DNA of 64,000 nucleotides from a virus: IMG/VR virus record IMGVR_UViG_3300037541_000522, positions 1-64,000 of that record; one strand, 5' to 3'. Position 1 is the stretch's first letter. Each line of letters opens with the position of its first letter. Both the position numbers and the translations under genes were made by a program. Positions 49,255 to 63,624 of the stretch are shown piece after piece. The notes beneath the pieces are model-generated. The model was not told the DNA's origin and did not search any database. It worked only from the letters and a program-made list of their open reading frames with translations.

Positions 49255-49310
49255 CTCATTCTCCTCGGTTGAGCAAGAATTGTTAATAAAAATGCCAAAT
49301 GGCCATTTAA

Positions 49311-49616
49311 GTCCAGGTTTTCTGTTACGAGGATAACCTGGAACCCTAAGCCGAGTTTAGGCGGCTAATGCGAACGTTTCATCGTTTGCGTTTAGTTTGT
49401 TTGCTTCTCTAGCCGGGTAGTCCCAGCCCTACGGCTTCTGCATTGCCGAGTTGTCCATCTTCCTACTCTGCACCCTGTCGAAACCATGACTAGCCCATCA
49501 GAAACATTCTCACGGTTTATCTTTCCGTTCCCAAATACATGGACAAAAATGTTTCTGGTGGACCAGGCGGGAGTCGAACCCGCGTCCAAAGCACCTTTGG
49601 GTTAACTTCATACAAC
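49311..49616 (-). ncRNA. ssrA: Circularly permuted two-piece tmRNA; tag ANDETFALAA
   Basis: Acceptor piece ...GACGCGGGTTCGACTCCCGCCTGGTCCACCA (ends 49556) precedes coding piece GGGCTAGTCATGGTTTCGAC (starts 49496). G3:U70 pair present; tag ORF at 49389-49357. Confidence 0.92.
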
Positions 49617-49800
49617 TATATCTTCTTTTGCGTAACACTACAACTACCAACTAGGGTTTTACCTTTAGTTTCGTAGTCTAGTTTAAGTTTGGCTAGTGCT
49701 TGTTCGCACTCAGCTCTGCTAGAGTATGCACCTCTAGTTCCGTGCTCGCCGCCAGTGCCTAACACAGAAAATAGTATAATCCATACCCAAGCCATAGTAT

Positions 49801-53212: not shown

Positions 53213-53313
53213 TGGTAGAAGGGGTGGGAATCGAACCCACATTAACTGCCTTATCTGGACAGTGCTTACGAGTTTATAAGGCTCGCCCTAAGGCCAATAT
53301 TAGCAACCCTTCC
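53213..53313 (-). tRNA. Aberrant 101-nt tRNA-like RNA, apparent anticodon TAT
   Basis: Acceptor GGAAGGG/CCCTTCT-ACCA, canonical T arm, odd D arm, very long variable arm. Confidence 0.65.
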
Positions 53314-56961: not shown

Positions 56962-57019
56962 CTCCGTGTGTTTAAATTCCCCTTACGGGGGCTGTTTGGG
57001 TTGGTTCCCAAATCTTTTA

Positions 57020-57094
57020 TGGTGGACCGCCGGAGGATCGAACTCCGACCTATGCCGTGCAAAGGCACCGTGCTCCCATTATCACTAGCAGCCC
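57020..57094 (-). tRNA. tRNA-Ala (TGC)
   Basis: G3:U70, TTTGCAC loop, ACCA. Confidence 0.92.
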
Positions 57095-57412
57095 TTAATA
57101 ATAATATACGTGTGGTTTACGTCCTACTGCGGGCGGATCTACTAGCTCTAGGTCTGTGGTCTTGAGCACTGCGTGCTCCCATACACGGCCACGACGACGC
57201 TGTGGACGATTCATAGTAATACGAGTCCACCAGCTAGGTGTTGTGCTATACCAGCGAAAATGACAGTAGTTTCTACGCTTTTTAGTTTTCTTGCCCGCAA
57301 CTTGTATGTAACGAAAACCAAAGCTACTAGTATCTACACGAATAGCATCGTATAAGTAGTGATCTTCTGGATACGCTACAGTGTGCGGTTTATCTTTTAG
57401 AGTACGACTCAT
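57095..57412 (-). CDS. Basic hypothetical protein (MSRTLKDKP...TPSWWTR)
   Basis: GGAG RBS; start at MSRT. Confidence 0.65.
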   Translation of the reverse strand: MSRTLKDKPHTVAYPEDHYLYDAIRVDTSSFGFRYIQVAGKKTKKRRNYCHFRWYSTTPSWWTRITMNRPQRRRGRVWEHAVLKTTDLELVDPPAVGRKPHVYYY

Positions 57413-57422
57413 TATTATCTCC

Positions 57423-57464
57423 AAAAAACCATAGTTCAAATCACGAGTATGAGTTGAACTATGG
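57423..57464 (-). terminator. Intrinsic terminator ending the ncRNA operon
   Basis: CCAUAGUUCAA...UUGAACUAUGG-UUUUUU. Confidence 0.85.
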
Positions 57465-57760
57465 CCCCACTCCCTAAAGTGGCTTCATAGTGTCTTGTTA
57501 CTATTGGGCGACGGCCCGCAGGTCTAGAATGTCCAGTTACGTAGTCCACCATCACTAGTAACTTTTATCGCCCTGTTGCGCGGTATAGTCTAGGGATACG
57601 ACTATGTAAGCGTGGCGGGAACTATTATATGCAGGTGCTCATTCCTGCTTGCTCTAGACTTCACTGTTCACGTTGTACAGTCGAATATCTTTACGGGGTA
57701 CGACCCCAGCCTAGTCACCAGCCTAGAGTTTATAGGTTCAGCGTGAGCAGCGCAATTACG
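57462..57760 (-). ncRNA. Unidentified ~300-nt structured RNA (candidate)
   Basis: No ORF in the track; many nested stems (see findings). Confidence 0.6.
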
Positions 57761-57763
57761 GAT

Positions 57764-57823
57764 GTTGACTAGAAATAAGTTTTCCCAGTTCAGGCTTTAG
57801 AGTGCCTTATCGGGCTAGTCAAC
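57764..57823 (-). ncRNA. 60-nt stem-loop element (candidate)
   Basis: GUUGACUAG...CUAGUCAAC 9-bp closing stem with inner stems. Confidence 0.5.
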
Positions 57824-57825
57824 AA

Positions 57826-57924
57826 CCATATTGAAACACACTGTGGTCTATACATACTTTCCTTGAGAGGTATGTGGTGTACCAGCCCTGATCTTTTTAG
57901 GGATTTTAATGTGCTTCAATATGG
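57826..57924 (-). ncRNA. 99-nt branched RNA closed by a 17-bp stem (candidate)
   Basis: CCAUAUUGAAGCACAUU/AGUGUGUUUCAAUAUGG with G-U pairs on the minus strand. Confidence 0.6.
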
Positions 57925-58008
57925 TGGATGCGGATGGATTCGAACCACCAGCGTTTCTAGTGTCACGAGTTTACAGCCCGCTGCCGTCAACCATTTGGCT
58001 ACGCATCC
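57922..58008 (-). tRNA. tRNA-Tyr (GTA)
   Basis: CTGTAAA loop, variable arm, ACCA. Confidence 0.92.
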
Positions 58009-58194
58009 ATAGTAAAGTATTTTGCTTACTGCCTGCTCGCGCATGAGTTAATCTTCCTGCCATATGATCCCGCTAAGGATCGGCTACGATTAACTTCAGC
58101 CCGCTTTAGGGATATACCGGCCGGGTACCCTTATTTCTCTGGGCTGCAATGTCCTGTTTATTTCACCTAGGACGAACAAAATACTTAACTATGG
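58007..58194 (-). ncRNA. ~185-nt multibranched RNA between tRNA-Leu and tRNA-Tyr (candidate)
   Basis: 17/18-bp closing stem plus GUCCU/AGGAC, CAGCCC/GGGCUG, GUUAAUC/GAUUAAC arms. Confidence 0.65.
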
Positions 58195-58274
58195 TGCCCT
58201 GGGACGGACTCGAACCGTCACGCTCGCGCACTGGCTTCTAAGACCAGCGTGTCTACCAATTCCACCACCTGGGC
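58192..58274 (-). tRNA. tRNA-Leu (TAG)
   Basis: CTTAGAA loop, ACCA. Confidence 0.92.
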
Positions 58275-58367
58275 ATGGTAACGATCTAAGGTTTTAATCG
58301 TTGTGGCTCATGCACCCCAAGCTGACGCTTGTTGAGCTTTTGCGGTTTGTGCCGCCCCATATATAAT

Positions 58368-58487
58368 ATTATACAGTATTAGTTAGCGTGAATCAAGACA
58401 AGAAATTAAACGGTAATAGTTGTATTGCTATTTCTTTCTTAATTCACACTATACACATATTATATCACGTTTACTGGTCTAGTGCAA
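58368..58487 (-). promoter_or_regulatory. Two tandem sigma70-type promoters driving the RNA operon
   Basis: TTGCAC-17-TATAAT (58487-58459) and TTGATT-17-TATAAT (58396-58368). Confidence 0.8.
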
Positions 58488-58489
58488 GT

Positions 58490-59491
58490 CTAAATTTTCA
58501 TTTGCTTGACAAAAGCAGCCTGAGCAAGGTTTTTCTCTTTGGACTCTAGCATAATGTCGCTATACTCTAGAAAACTACCGGCCCACTCGTTACAAGCTAG
58601 GTTCCAGTAGTAGTCACTATGTGCACGCAATTTAGCTCGCGTGAATCCTTGTGTTAACAATTCCTGCAGGTTGGGTCGGGCATTGCGATCATGTTCGACT
58701 ACAACATCTTCACGACTCAAGCTGTAGTGGATTACTGGCCTAACACCTCGCCAAGATTCCCATAACCGCTGTACACGAGGATCGGTTGGCTCAATGTATT
58801 CCCCACTCATAATCCAGTGATGGTGAATGTCTAGGACTAGTGCACAGTGATCTACTAGCTCTAGACTAGCATTAATACCCCAGCTAAACTCAGCGTTCTC
58901 AATGGTAAGCACATTGCGAGCTTCACGACTAAGACGCTTAAGTGCTTGTTTGATACCTTCTGGACCTTGTTTGCCACCAATATGTACGTTGCACTTAAAG
59001 TCTTGAAATTCACGACCATAACCCATGTAGCGAATAAGGTCTACATGATACTCAAACTCTTGAATAGAGTTTTCAACAACATTTGGGTTTTCACTAGCTA
59101 GTACACAAAACTGACCGGGATGAAAACTAAGTCGAATATCGTGTTGTCTAGCTAGGTTGCCAATCATATCAAATCTAGCCTCTAGCTCGCGAACTACGTC
59201 TGGCTCCCAGTACCACCACGACCAGTCGTCGTGGGTATATGCTGGAAGCAAGTCGCTGCTTAGGCGGAACATACGCTCTTGTGCTGGCTTTTTAGCTACC
59301 CACTCTAGTTGCCTGATTATGGCGTTAGTATTCTTGTCCAGAATACCCCATAGCTTGGCTACAGCTACATCTCGGGTCTGATTATTTAGCCAAGTAATTG
59401 TGGTAGTGCCGGTGTTTAGGCCTGGAGCTGCTTTGTCATGGCTTTCTTGAATCTTGCAAGCAAAACCAACTCTGGGGTGTTGTTTGAACAT
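58490..59491 (-). CDS. uvsE: UV-damage endonuclease
   Basis: GFACK, FRLSSDLLP, RLSFHPGQF, LTIEN, LDIHHH, RAHSDY. Confidence 0.92.
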   Translation of the reverse strand: MFKQHPRVGFACKIQESHDKAAPGLNTGTTTITWLNNQTRDVAVAKLWGILDKNTNAIIRQLEWVAKKPAQERMFRLSSDLLPAYTHDDWSWWYWEPDVVRELEARFDMIGNLARQHDIRLSFHPGQFCVLASENPNVVENSIQEFEYHVDLIRYMGYGREFQDFKCNVHIGGKQGPEGIKQALKRLSREARNVLTIENAEFSWGINASLELVDHCALVLDIHHHWIMSGEYIEPTDPRVQRLWESWRGVRPVIHYSLSREDVVVEHDRNARPNLQELLTQGFTRAKLRAHSDYYWNLACNEWAGSFLEYSDIMLESKEKNLAQAAFVKQMKI

Positions 59492-60842: not shown

Positions 60843-61094
60843 TTACATACCAGCTATATCCCTGCATACACTACAAATGGGATTTTGATCTAGGTCTAGG
60901 ATTAGTCGCTTAGACCAGATGTTACAGTGTGTACACTGCTCTATGCCAATGTCCATTTCTAGTATACTTTCGTAGTCTAGGTCAAGTTCATTGCATACTT
61001 TTTTAAGCGGCACACGGGTACGCTCTAGGCGTTTAACCAGCTCACTTAGTTTCAGGCTTCCAGCGGTCATCGAGTTCACGGTGTGTTTTTTCAA
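60843..61094 (-). CDS. Small zinc-ribbon protein
   Basis: CTHC...CSVC. Confidence 0.55.
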   Translation of the reverse strand: MKKHTVNSMTAGSLKLSELVKRLERTRVPLKKVCNELDLDYESILEMDIGIEQCTHCNIWSKRLILDLDQNPICSVCRDIAGM

Positions 61095-61497
61095 ATTCTA
61101 GGAGGAACATAATGCAACACATAGCATGAGCTAGGTGGCTTAGTCCCGATTCAGGGTCACGATCTTCGCCGTCTTGAAAAGCTAGGATGTGACGTAGTGC
61201 TGCACTAAGTGGACGAGACCACTCAAATCCGCCACGCCAATTATGTGCAGCGTACTTCTCTTTGCCAAAGGCTAGTACCATAGCAGTTTGATGTAGTGCT
61301 TCACTGCTGAGTAGGCTCATAGGAGCCTTATAACTATCGTACTTTAGTGCAGTACCTTGCGGTTTTGGTGTAGCCTCTTGCCAAGCAGGCTTACTCCAGC
61401 CAGGCCCAAAAAACTGATTTGTTTCTATAGCCTGCTTCATTTTGTCTACTTCTTCTTGCGAGTATAGTGGTGTTTGTGTAAAATTTATAGTTGTCAT
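61042..61497 (-). CDS. dATP/dGTP diphosphohydrolase-like (DUF5664) protein
   Basis: KYD..K, FGKEKY..HNW, ALRH, DPESGLSHLAHA. Confidence 0.85.
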   Translation of the reverse strand: MTTINFTQTPLYSQEEVDKMKQAIETNQFFGPGWSKPAWQEATPKPQGTALKYDSYKAPMSLLSSEALHQTAMVLAFGKEKYAAHNWRGGFEWSRPLSAALRHILAFQDGEDRDPESGLSHLAHAMCCIMFLLEFEKTHRELDDRWKPETK

Positions 61498-61512
61498 GGT
61501 TGTAGTATAGAC

Positions 61513-61698
61513 AAAGGCGGCCAAGTCTCGTAGGAGAACTTGGCCGCGGGAACACACTTACCTGTACACAGGACTTATAGTGTAGCATCCAACTTGTACC
61601 TCCAAGCCGTGTACGGCCCAGATTATATAGTGGATTAAGGCATTTGAGTTGTTTCTTGCAACTAGCAGTTCGTGGTCAAATCCTTGAACACCACGCAA
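61513..61698 (-). ncRNA. Candidate ~185-nt small RNA/leader between promoter and terminator
   Basis: Several hairpins; ends in GCGGCCAAGU...ACUUGGCCGC-CUUU. Confidence 0.6.
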
Positions 61699-62724: not shown

Positions 62725-63624
62725 ATGAGCAATATAAAAGCTACTATTATCAGGGACAGTGTATATACTCCCACTAAGTCCAGAATTACTACATTTGAAA
62801 TTGAGTACCCACGCTTTATCCTAGCTGAGTTTAATACTCACCGTATGCTATCGCGCAATACAGCTAGTTCGCGTGCAATTCCTGTACAAAAAATGCACGA
62901 ACACATTCGTGATAACACTGCGGTTCCTGTGGTTTGGGGTCAAAATAAAGCAGGCATGCAAGCAGATGAAGAAATACTGCCAGATATGCAAAACTATGCT
63001 AGGCTAACTTGGATGGAAGCTCGAGATAGTGCTATTCGCTACAGCAGGTTACTAGCAGATTTTGATGTACACAAGCAGATTACTAACCGGCTCACAGAGC
63101 CATTTCAAATTGTTAAAACTGTAGTAACTGCGACGGAGTGGGAAAACTTCTTCTGGCTACGAGACCATGAGATGGCACAGCCTGAGTTTAAGGAACTTGC
63201 CCATCAAATGCATGAACTGTACCGCGCATCACAACCTCAAGCACTACAACCGGACGAATGGCACCTACCCTATGTTCGTACAACTCGTGCTGCTAATCAT
63301 ACGCAGATGTTTATTGATGAACAAACAGGCCTAGAAATCAAGCTGGCCGACGCTATCAAGATTAGTGCTAGTTGTTGTGCACAGGTAAGCTATCGCAAGC
63401 AGGATACCTCACTAGACAAAGCTATTCGTATCTATGATCAATTAGTAGAATCTAAACCCGCACACGCTAGTCCAGTTGAACATCAGGCTACTCCTATTAC
63501 GCAGTGGGATACCCTAGAGCGTATTGGTGTATCGCATCAGGATCGATATGGTCAGCTATGGTCGGGCAACTTCTGCGGTTGGGTTCAATACCGCAAACTT
63601 ATTCCAGGAGAAGCAAAGTGGTAA
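62725..63624 (+). CDS. thyX: Flavin-dependent thymidylate synthase-like protein
   Basis: EFNTHRMLSRNTASSR signature; HKQITNRL; HASPVEH. Confidence 0.85.
   Translation: MSNIKATIIRDSVYTPTKSRITTFEIEYPRFILAEFNTHRMLSRNTASSRAIPVQKMHEHIRDNTAVPVVWGQNKAGMQADEEILPDMQNYARLTWMEARDSAIRYSRLLADFDVHKQITNRLTEPFQIVKTVVTATEWENFFWLRDHEMAQPEFKELAHQMHELYRASQPQALQPDEWHLPYVRTTRAANHTQMFIDEQTGLEIKLADAIKISASCCAQVSYRKQDTSLDKAIRIYDQLVESKPAHASPVEHQATPITQWDTLERIGVSHQDRYGQLWSGNFCGWVQYRKLIPGEAKW

What the first reader, a model, noticed from the sequence alone, without database searches (positions are those of the whole stretch)
57423..58487. ~950-nt tRNA-punctuated operon of unidentified structured RNAs
Seen: two tandem promoters (58487, 58396) and a clean terminator (57464-57423) bracket a region with no credible ORF. 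The order is: an 82-nt leader ending in ACCA, tRNA-Leu, a 185-nt multibranch RNA, tRNA-Tyr, a 99-nt branched RNA, a 60-nt stem-loop and a ~300-nt ornate RNA. It appears more GC-rich than the flanks, and G-U pairs favour the minus strand. Established: T4 and T5 tRNA clusters yield stable RNAs of unknown function, and large RNAs such as GOLLD and ROOL sit among phage tRNAs. Inference: tRNA processing releases a set of phage ncRNAs. I could not match them to RNase P, SRP, 6S or GOLLD signatures by eye.
Basis: partly seen in the sequence, partly recalled or inferred. Interest (0 to 1): 0.8.

Follow-up and report, generated by a model that had tools for sequence, protein, structure and literature searches.

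The report
Phage tRNA operon carrying new RNAs
A lake phage transcribes two tRNAs together with several folded non-coding RNAs, two of which belong to widespread, uncatalogued phage RNA families, and one of those sits next to the Ro60 RNA-quality-control gene in other phages.

Summary
On the minus strand, 57423-58487 is an ORF-free unit. It runs promoter(s), an 82-86 nt leader, tRNA-Leu(UAG), a 183-nt branched RNA (B), tRNA-Tyr(GUA), a variable spacer hairpin (C), a stem-loop (H60), about 300 nt of ornate RNA, then a hairpin and U-run. Rfam 15 matches only the tRNAs.

The "ornate RNA" is two independent families fused together.

- Da (57650-57753) is a pseudoknotted three-way junction. I found it in 40 distinct phage sequences; 92.7% of cells pair against 58.7% in shuffles, and the pseudoknot itself covaries.
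- Db (57462-57630) covaries in 9 sequences, and 17 further contigs match its profile, always inside tRNA arrays.
- In other phages the two occur in the opposite order or alone.

Lake metatranscriptome contigs cover H60-Da-Db at depth about 88, against 3-5 on neighbouring genes.

New here: Da lies within 4 kb of 15 of 80 phage Ro60 (TROVE) genes. All 15 are on the same strand, and they fall in at least three separate Ro60 clades. This points to a Y-RNA-like role. The window phage itself has no Ro60 gene. B, the leader, H60 and C exist only in close relatives.

The scan had already met Da on other DNA, a 524-kb phage (e1-5694173, e1-5694183). Processing and function are inferred, not shown.

The parts
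58459..58487 (-). Promoter 1: TTGCAC, 17-nt spacer, TGaTATAAT (extended -10)
   Evidence: Read. Conserved in L004-L006.
58368..58396 (-). Promoter 2: TTGATT-17-TATAAT, inside an 83-nt insertion found only in the window
   Evidence: 10 of 12 matches. The insertion is absent from L004-L006 (A1 columns 80-162).
58275..58360 (-). Leader: cloverleaf-shaped, not tRNA-like by any model; ends in ...ACCAU directly before tRNA-Leu
   Evidence: Fold (z -1.9). 98-99% identical in L004 and L005. No Rfam match.
58192..58274 (-). tRNA-Leu(UAG)
58009..58191 (-). B: 183-nt multibranch RNA closed by a 16-bp stem that starts right after the tRNA-Leu CCA and ends before tRNA-Tyr
   Evidence: Fold z -3.4. 97% column identity across 6 relatives. 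The few changes are GNRA loop swaps (GCGA, GUAA, GCAA) and a compensatory GAUCC/GGAUC to GAUUC/GAAUC change. RNA contigs from 3 studies cover it.
57922..58008 (-). tRNA-Tyr(GUA)
   Evidence: Absent together with C in L065.
57834..57921 (-). C: variable spacer hairpin closed by UAUUGAAGCACAUU / AGUGUGUUUCAAUA
   Evidence: Replaced by unrelated sequence with a similar closing stem in L004.
57761..57833 (-). H60: long stem-loop found only in the window's close relatives
57650..57753 (-). Da core: P1; CUGAA; pseudoknot strand CCUA; UAA; P2; GGUGAC; pseudoknot strand UAGG; P3; GUAAnGRUA; P4; P2'
   Evidence: Model R1 scores 95 bits. Covariation.
57631..57648 (-). P5 hairpin following Da (GCAGG-AAUGAGCA-CCUGC); a variable accessory
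   Evidence: Stem covaries by eye across L023, L039, L044, L046 and L059; not counted formally.
57462..57630 (-). Db: about 170-nt multi-helix RNA with two invariant complementary loops, UCCCUA and UAGGGA
   Evidence: Alignment A8. Covariation count. 17 more profile-matching carriers, all in tRNA arrays.
57423..57466 (-). Terminator-like hairpin plus U6. Its 5' strand overlaps the 3' end of Db. Its loop carries a 55-60 nt insert in L004 and L005

Best explanation
The region is one transcription unit of a roughly 98-kb uncultured lake phage. It makes two tRNAs and a set of folded non-coding RNAs.

Shown:
- The layout of the unit and the lack of ORFs.
- Two embedded RNA families, Da and Db, are conserved with compensatory base-pair changes across many unrelated phage contigs.
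- Neither family is in Rfam 15.
- An RNA spanning H60-Da-Db is over-represented in lake metatranscriptomes.

Inferred biogenesis (about 0.7): host RNase P and 3' tRNA-processing enzymes cut at the tRNA borders. The long stems that begin just after each CCA and end just before the next 5' G (B, C, terminator) act as processing or stabilising stalks. This would release B and the roughly 370-nt H60-Da-Db RNA.

Inferred function (about 0.35-0.4): Da is a protein-binding module of the Ro60/Y-RNA pathway. In phages that encode Ro60 it is encoded just upstream of that gene. In this phage, which has no Ro60 gene, it would engage the host's Rsr or its partner exoribonuclease and redirect decay of structured RNA during infection.

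Db is a separate RNA specific to tRNA arrays, with an unknown partner. Its two invariant complementary loops could kiss within one molecule or between molecules.
For: Layout.

No Rfam family even at E <= 10, in the window and in 7 related loci.

Da:
- 40 distinct sequences; 92.7% of cells paired against 58.7% in shuffles and 34-42% when partners are slid; 25 of 27 pairs show double changes.
- The pseudoknot is 100% paired, as CCUA/UAGG, CCCA/UGGG, CUCA/UGAG, CCAA/UUGG and CAUC/GAUG.
- Phage-specific: 1 hit on a small MAG contig among 185,579 prokaryote species genomes.

Db:
- On a structure-blind MAFFT alignment, 92% paired against 78% in shuffles and about 40% when slid; 19 of 43 pairs show double changes.
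- All 17 further carriers have it inside tRNA arrays on the tRNA strand.

Modularity: Da and Db occur in the opposite order, or one without the other.

RNA evidence: contigs at 57479-57812 and 57480-57824 have depth 88-90, against 3-5 for contigs of the same phage on flanking genes. A second study shows 16 and 7.6 against 2.6. Contig depth is a crude measure, and reads from related strains may pool.

Ro60 link:
- 4 of 4 Da-bearing contigs that encode TROVE have Da 0.1-2.6 kb upstream on the same strand.
- 15 of 80 phage Ro60 loci hold Da within 4 kb; all 15 are on the same strand and 14 are upstream.
- 12 of those 15 loci have no tRNA nearby.
- The 15 fall in at least 3 separated Ro60 clades, needing 7 changes on the tree against 13.9 for shuffled labels.

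Context from the literature: Y RNAs are typically encoded next to Ro60 (PMC4201824), and a phage Ro60 binds RNAs encoded upstream of its gene (PMC12135203).
Against: - The window genome (92% complete) has no TROVE or RtcB gene.
- Of 9 Da-bearing genomes estimated at least 90% complete, 8 lack TROVE.
- Da does not match the Rfam YrlA or Y_RNA models.
- Da has GCUGAAC where bacterial Y RNAs have GNCGAA.
- Da lacks T and D arms, except in L038 and L049.
- No ends are mapped and no binding is shown.
- The depth figures are per contig, and reads from related strains may be pooled into one contig.
- B, the leader and H60 are known only from near-identical relatives.
- Neighbouring genes in those relatives are mosaic (76-98% identity), so high identity alone is weak evidence of selection.
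Confidence: 0.6

Rival explanations
1. The folded segments act only in cis. They are processing stalks and stabilisers that help the precursor to be cut and the tRNAs to mature, with no function of their own after release.
For: - B, C and the terminator are all hairpins closed by strands that start at a CCA and end at the next 5' GG.
- C and the terminator loop are freely swapped or enlarged among close relatives.
- B, the leader and H60 have no distant relatives.
Against: - Da and Db keep about 20-30 invariant junction nucleotides and covarying helices across unrelated phages.
- Da also occurs far from any tRNA, between tail sheath and tail tube genes and beside Ro60.
- The H60-Da-Db RNA appears to accumulate.
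Confidence: 0.15
2. Da, and perhaps Db, is a decoy or sponge against a host defence or RNase that targets tRNA-like RNAs. It would be deployed from the tRNA operon like the phage's spare tRNAs, independently of Ro60.
For: - It sits in tRNA arrays.
- In L038 and L049 the Da core replaces the anticodon arm of an otherwise tRNA-shaped scaffold: a 7-bp acceptor stem, a D-like arm and a UUCAAUU T-loop.
- It is phage-only.
Against: - The tRNA-like scaffold is seen in only one lineage.
- The linkage to Ro60 is not predicted by this idea.
- No defence gene or target is identified.
Confidence: 0.12
3. Da is a new self-cleaving ribozyme that helps to cut polycistronic phage transcripts. It would be analogous to the HDV-like theta ribozymes found beside gut-phage tRNAs.
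For: - It has a pseudoknotted core with many invariant junction nucleotides.
- It occupies intergenic and tRNA-flanking positions; in L050 it sits flush between two tRNAs.
- There is precedent in PMC10879173.
Against: - No match to any ribozyme family in Rfam.
- Its topology differs from HDV-like ribozymes: no P3/L3 hairpin between P2 and the pseudoknot strand, and a pseudoknot of only 4 bp.
- RNA contigs run unbroken through Da at high depth.
Confidence: 0.08
4. Da is a cis-acting leader (a riboswitch or attenuator) that controls downstream genes such as tail tube or Ro60. The window copy would be a relic.
For: It lies upstream of and on the same strand as tail tube genes and Ro60 genes.
Against: - In the window it is followed by Db and a terminator, not by a regulated ORF.
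- The distance to Ro60 varies from 0.1 to 3.4 kb, often with ORFs in between.
- It is usually enclosed by its own closing stem, leaving no evident expression platform.
Confidence: 0.05

Closest known systems
Bacterial and phage Y RNAs (YrlA/YrlB, D. radiodurans Yrn1, Thermus phage phiLo Yrl1/Yrl2), the RNA partners of Ro60/Rsr
   Same: - Da is encoded just upstream of phage Ro60 genes on the same strand in 15 of 80 loci.
- It is usually enclosed by a stem formed from its 5' and 3' flanks.
- It has an invariant single-stranded ...GCUGAAC next to that stem.
- One lineage embeds it in a tRNA-like scaffold, echoing the tRNA mimicry of YrlA.
   Different: - No hit to Rfam YrlA or Y_RNA.
- The motif is UGAA, not CGAA.
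- The core is a pseudoknotted three-way junction not described for Y RNAs.
- Most carriers, including this window, have no Ro60 gene.
- Binding is untested.
Phage T4 small stable RNAs rnaC (species 1, 139 nt) and rnaD (species 2, 119 nt)
   Same: They are non-tRNA structured RNAs encoded on the tRNA strand, directly after a tRNA in the tRNA cluster, with function still unknown.
   Different: No sequence or structure match to Da. T4 rnaC carries a T-arm-like hairpin, which Da and Db lack.
GOLLD (RF01998) and ROOL (RF03087) large ornate RNAs
   Same: They are phage-associated, often near tRNAs, elaborate folds with unknown function. The complementary loops of Db could in principle mediate self-assembly.
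   Different: No Rfam match. Da (about 105 nt) and Db (about 170 nt) are much smaller and have different architectures.
HDV-like theta ribozymes beside gut-phage tRNAs (PMC10879173)
   Same: They are small pseudoknotted RNAs in phage tRNA clusters.
   Different: Theta ribozymes lie within 5 nt of the tRNA 3' end and keep the HDV core. Da has a different helix order and is not tied to tRNA 3' ends.

Membership tests
Y RNA (Ro60-associated ncRNA) | Gene lies next to a Ro60/Rsr (TROVE) gene | tested here: not met
   The window genome has no TROVE hit. At family level the feature is met elsewhere: 15 of 80 phage Ro60 loci and 4 of 4 TROVE-encoding Da contigs.
Y RNA (Ro60-associated ncRNA) | Ro60-contact motif GNCGAAN0-1G (bacteria) or GGUCCGA (animals) near the 5' end, by the terminal stem (PMC4201824) | tested here: inconclusive
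   Da has an invariant GCUGAAC after P1: U where C is expected. The arrangement relative to the paired strand differs from that in animal Y RNAs.
Y RNA, YrlA subclass | Near-invariant T and D arms (tRNA-like domain); match to Rfam RF02553 | tested here: not met
   No RF02553 or Y_RNA hit on Da in the window or in 7 + 15 loci. T- and D-like arms appear only in L038 and L049.
Y RNA (Ro60-associated ncRNA) | Physical binding to Ro60 | not testable with these tools
   Needs EMSA or co-purification.
T4-type stable RNAs of tRNA operons (rnaC/rnaD) | Encoded in the tRNA transcription unit on the tRNA strand, flush with tRNAs | tested here: met
T4-type stable RNAs of tRNA operons (rnaC/rnaD) | Homology to rnaC or rnaD | tested here: not met
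   R1 run with filters off on the T4 region gives a best score of 7 bits, which is noise.
GOLLD / ROOL / other Rfam ornate RNAs | Match to the family covariance model | tested here: not met
HDV-like / theta ribozymes | HDV nested double pseudoknot core; position within 5 nt of a tRNA 3' end | tested here: not met
   No Rfam hit. The helix order differs. In the window, Da lies 168 nt from the tRNA-Tyr 3' end.
tRNA (for leader, B, C, Da, Db) | Match to the tRNA model | tested here: not met
   Only the three annotated tRNAs score in 57000-58800 at E <= 10.

The most novel reading that the evidence does not exclude
Da is a new structural class of Y RNA. It would be a pseudoknotted module that partners Ro60/Rsr, or the exoribonuclease that Ro60 recruits. 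Phages would carry it either beside their own Ro60 gene or, as here, in a tRNA operon to commandeer the host's RNA-decay machinery. Db would be a second, independent effector RNA that may self-associate through its invariant complementary loops.
Probability: 0.35. Interest if true: 0.8.

Novelty: new variant of a known kind. Interest (0 to 1): 0.72.

Why it matters
Stable non-tRNA RNAs in phage tRNA clusters have been known since T4, but none has an assigned function. This locus makes the problem more tractable in three ways.

- It gives two well-supported, widespread families (Da and Db) with defined cores.
- It offers a first functional handle: repeated gene linkage of Da to phage Ro60 genes.
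- It provides a natural example in which the same module is delivered from a tRNA operon in a phage that lacks Ro60.

If Da binds Ro60 or its nuclease partner, it would be a new Y-RNA architecture. It would also show that phages manipulate RNA quality control with RNAs released from their tRNA operons.

Tried and rejected
- Rfam at gathering score and at E <= 10, on the window and on 7 + 30 related loci: only tRNAs, tmRNA, one wcaG and one group I intron.
- blastn of the region and of jumbo-phage Da copies against 50,697 GenBank phage records: only tRNA hits, or nothing.
- Cultured relatives chosen by their tail-tube protein (Sinorhizobium phage Phosso, Agrobacterium phage Atu_ph07, Pseudomonas phage PA5oct): no Da upstream of the tube gene.
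- T4 rnaC and rnaD: no relation.
- Literature search for the invariant motifs found nothing relevant.
- The supplements of the 10,006-csRNA paper (PMC10690425) are not held, so I could not check whether Da or Db are among its unnamed candidates.
- Distant relatives of B, the leader, H60 and C: none among about 250 fetched loci.
- A helix between J1/2 and the P5 loop proposed by RNAalifold has no covariation and was dropped.
- Folding energy does not discriminate the strands.
- TROVE and RtcB in the window genome: absent.
- RNA contigs did not cover the tRNA genes or 57340-57473. Nothing is inferred from these gaps.
- The 7-letter identity between Da (UGACUAG) and my recollection of the 3' strand of animal Y RNAs was judged superficial, because the pairing partner lies on the other side. 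That Y RNA sequence is from memory and was not checked with a tool.

Full report
**What is there**

The window is part of a 97.5-kb IMG/VR virus record, estimated 92% complete. It carries 19 tRNA or tmRNA genes on the minus strand, including a permuted tmRNA.

The flagged stretch lies between a UvdE-type endonuclease gene (58490-59491; Pfam PF03851) and a 105-aa ORF that starts at 57412. On the minus strand it reads as follows.

- Promoter 1: TTGCAC, 17-nt spacer, TGaTATAAT (58487-58459).
- An 83-nt insertion, unique to the window, that carries promoter 2 (58396-58368).
- A cloverleaf-shaped leader (58360-58275).
- tRNA-Leu(UAG).
- B (58191-58009).
- tRNA-Tyr(GUA).
- C (57921-57834).
- H60 (57833-57761).
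- Da (57753-57650) with an accessory hairpin.
- Db (57630-57462).
- A 13-bp hairpin followed by six U (57466-57423).

There is no credible ORF. GC content is 0.48, against 0.43-0.45 in the flanks. Rfam 15 finds only the tRNAs, even at E <= 10.

**Relatives and modularity**

The UvdE protein retrieved 31 related viral loci.

- In close relatives (L004, L005, L043, L064, L065), the leader, the tRNAs and B are 98-100% identical to the window. UvdE is only 79-80% identical at the DNA level, but other neighbouring genes range from 76% to 98%. The region is therefore mosaic, and identity alone proves little.
- C is replaced by unrelated sequence in L004.
- tRNA-Tyr and C are both missing in L065.
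- The terminator loop holds 55-60 nt inserts in L004 and L005.
- nhmmer showed that the '300-nt ornate RNA' is two units. In L023, L037, L046, L051 and L059 they occur as Db then Da, each with its own flanking stem.

**Da**

An exact-pattern scan of the viral collection found 31 stretches; a relaxed pattern found 96. A covariance model built from 11 sequences (R1) confirmed 40 distinct copies.

- On their alignment, 92.7% of cells form standard pairs, against 58.7% in shuffles and 34-42% when partners are slid.
- 25 of 27 pairs show compensatory changes.
- The relaxed pattern left four letters free on each of two junction strands. These always stayed complementary: CCUA/UAGG, CCCA/UGGG, CUCA/UGAG, CCAA/UUGG and CAUC/GAUG. 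This establishes a pseudoknot.
- About 22 junction nucleotides are invariant: CUGAA, UAA, GGUGAC and UAAnGRUA.
- Da is essentially phage-only: one hit in 185,579 prokaryote species genomes, on a 4.4-kb MAG contig.

Contexts vary. Da occurs in tRNA arrays, in one case flush between two tRNAs (L050). In jumbo phages it lies between tail sheath and tail tube genes. In one locus it follows a Q-like antiterminator gene (L055). In L038 and L049 it takes the anticodon-arm position of a tRNA-shaped scaffold.

**Db**

On a structure-blind MAFFT alignment of nine sequences, my helices are 92% paired, against 78% in shuffles and about 40% when slid. 19 of 43 pairs show double changes. Two hairpin loops, UCCCUA and UAGGGA, are invariant and complementary; this contact is untestable by covariation.

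A pattern scan plus nhmmer found 17 more carriers. In every one, Db lies inside a tRNA array on the tRNA strand, often within 20 nt of a tRNA end. None has Da nearby.

**B, leader, H60 and C**

No distant relatives were found. The six known copies of B differ by three GNRA-type loop variants, one compensatory pair and two wobble changes. This suggests a constrained structure, but the sample is thin.

B, C and the terminator share one design. Each is a long stem that begins right after a CCA and ends right before the next 5' GG, with variable cargo in the loop.

**Expression**

Four metatranscriptome runs from three studies hold parts of the stretch.

- In two runs of one study, a single contig spans 57479-57812 or 57480-57824 at depth 88-90. 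Contigs of the same phage on the flanking genes have depth 3-5.
- In another study the figures are 16 and 7.6, against 2.6.
- One contig bridges C, H60 and part of Da.
- B is covered in three studies.

These are contig depths, not read counts. The conserved RNA may also pool reads from related strains, and no ends can be read. I take this as suggestive evidence for an abundant RNA of at least 340 nt covering H60-Da-Db.

**Link to Ro60**

I also noticed Ro-like genes next to tail tube genes in cultured relatives. I therefore tested the linkage.

- Of 39 Da-bearing records, four encode a TROVE protein. In all four, Da lies 0.1-2.6 kb upstream on the same strand.
- In the reverse direction, among the best 80 of 261 phage Ro60 loci, 15 hold Da within 4 kb. 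All 15 are on the Ro60 strand; 14 are upstream and one is immediately downstream.
- Twelve of the 15 have no tRNA nearby, and none has an Rfam YrlA hit.
- As a control, 21 Db loci (212 kb) had no Da.
- On a Ro60 tree, the Da-linked genes fall in at least three separated clades. The tree needs 7 changes, against 13.9 for shuffled labels.
- Db, B and the other parts are absent from Ro60 loci.

Gene linkage is the criterion by which bacterial Y RNAs were found (PMC4201824). A phage Ro60 binds RNAs encoded upstream of its gene and also forms complexes with host PNPase (PMC12135203).

Against membership:

- Da does not match the YrlA or Y_RNA models.
- It has UGAA where CGAA is expected.
- It has a different core.
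- The window phage and seven of the eight other near-complete Da carriers lack Ro60.

**Reading**

The operon and the reality of Da and Db are well supported. Processing by tRNA enzymes is inferred from position. My best guess at function, at about 0.35-0.4, is that Da is a Ro60-pathway module. In this phage it would be supplied from a tRNA operon and would act on host Rsr or its nuclease partner.

The rivals are cis-only processing scaffolds, a decoy against defence systems, a ribozyme, and a cis-regulatory leader.

I found no description of Da or Db in Rfam 15 or in the papers I searched. They may be among the unnamed candidates of PMC10690425, which I could not check.

Noticed in passing
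window 49287-49676 (-): A permuted (two-piece) tmRNA gene with tag ANDETFALAA. It matches Rfam RF04321 (114 bits) and the betaproteobacterial tmRNA model, which hints at a betaproteobacterial host.
   Followed up: no
window 53216-53313 (-): A 98-nt stretch scores 39.9 bits to the tRNA model but ARAGORN did not call it. It may be an aberrant tRNA-like gene with a long insert.
   Followed up: no
window 61042-61557 (-): An ORF with a dATP/dGTP diphosphohydrolase N-terminal domain (PF18909, E 4e-34). From my own knowledge (not checked here), this family is associated with phages that modify their DNA bases. A ThyX-like gene lies nearby at 62725-63624.
   Followed up: no
window 58376-58458 (approx.): An 83-nt insertion carrying a second near-consensus promoter is present in the window and absent from L004, L005 and L006, which have promoter 1 only.
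   Followed up: partly
L168 1558-4186 (G004:C1:117557-120185): A 2.5-kb ORF-free stretch in a 296-kb phage contig holds Da, then a wcaG RNA (RF01761, 56 bits), then more unassigned sequence, directly upstream of its Ro60 gene. It looks like an island of non-coding RNA genes.
   Followed up: partly
L038 10960-11110 (-), same in L049: The Da core sits where the anticodon arm would be in a tRNA-shaped RNA. That RNA has a 7-bp acceptor stem GCCGCAG/CUGCGGC, a D-like arm with GG, and a T-like arm with loop UUCAAUU.
   Followed up: partly
L175 3301-3422, L179 2889-3016, L203 3071-3201, L178 3296-3419: Phage Ro60 loci carry 120-130 nt hits to the tRNA model about 0.6-1 kb upstream of Ro60. They may be YrlA-like tRNA mimics that fall below the YrlA gathering score.
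   Followed up: no
L004 7946-8003 and L005 7961-8020: The loop of the terminator hairpin holds unrelated 55-60 nt inserts in the two close relatives. This suggests the hairpin is a tolerant insertion site or a cargo-carrying spacer, like B and C.
   Followed up: partly
L158 1-1152 and L159 1-853: The cultured jumbo phages Sinorhizobium Phosso and Agrobacterium Atu_ph07 encode a Ro-like protein immediately upstream of the tail tube genes. In Atu_ph07 a roughly 650-nt unannotated gap follows it. No Da was found there.
   Followed up: partly
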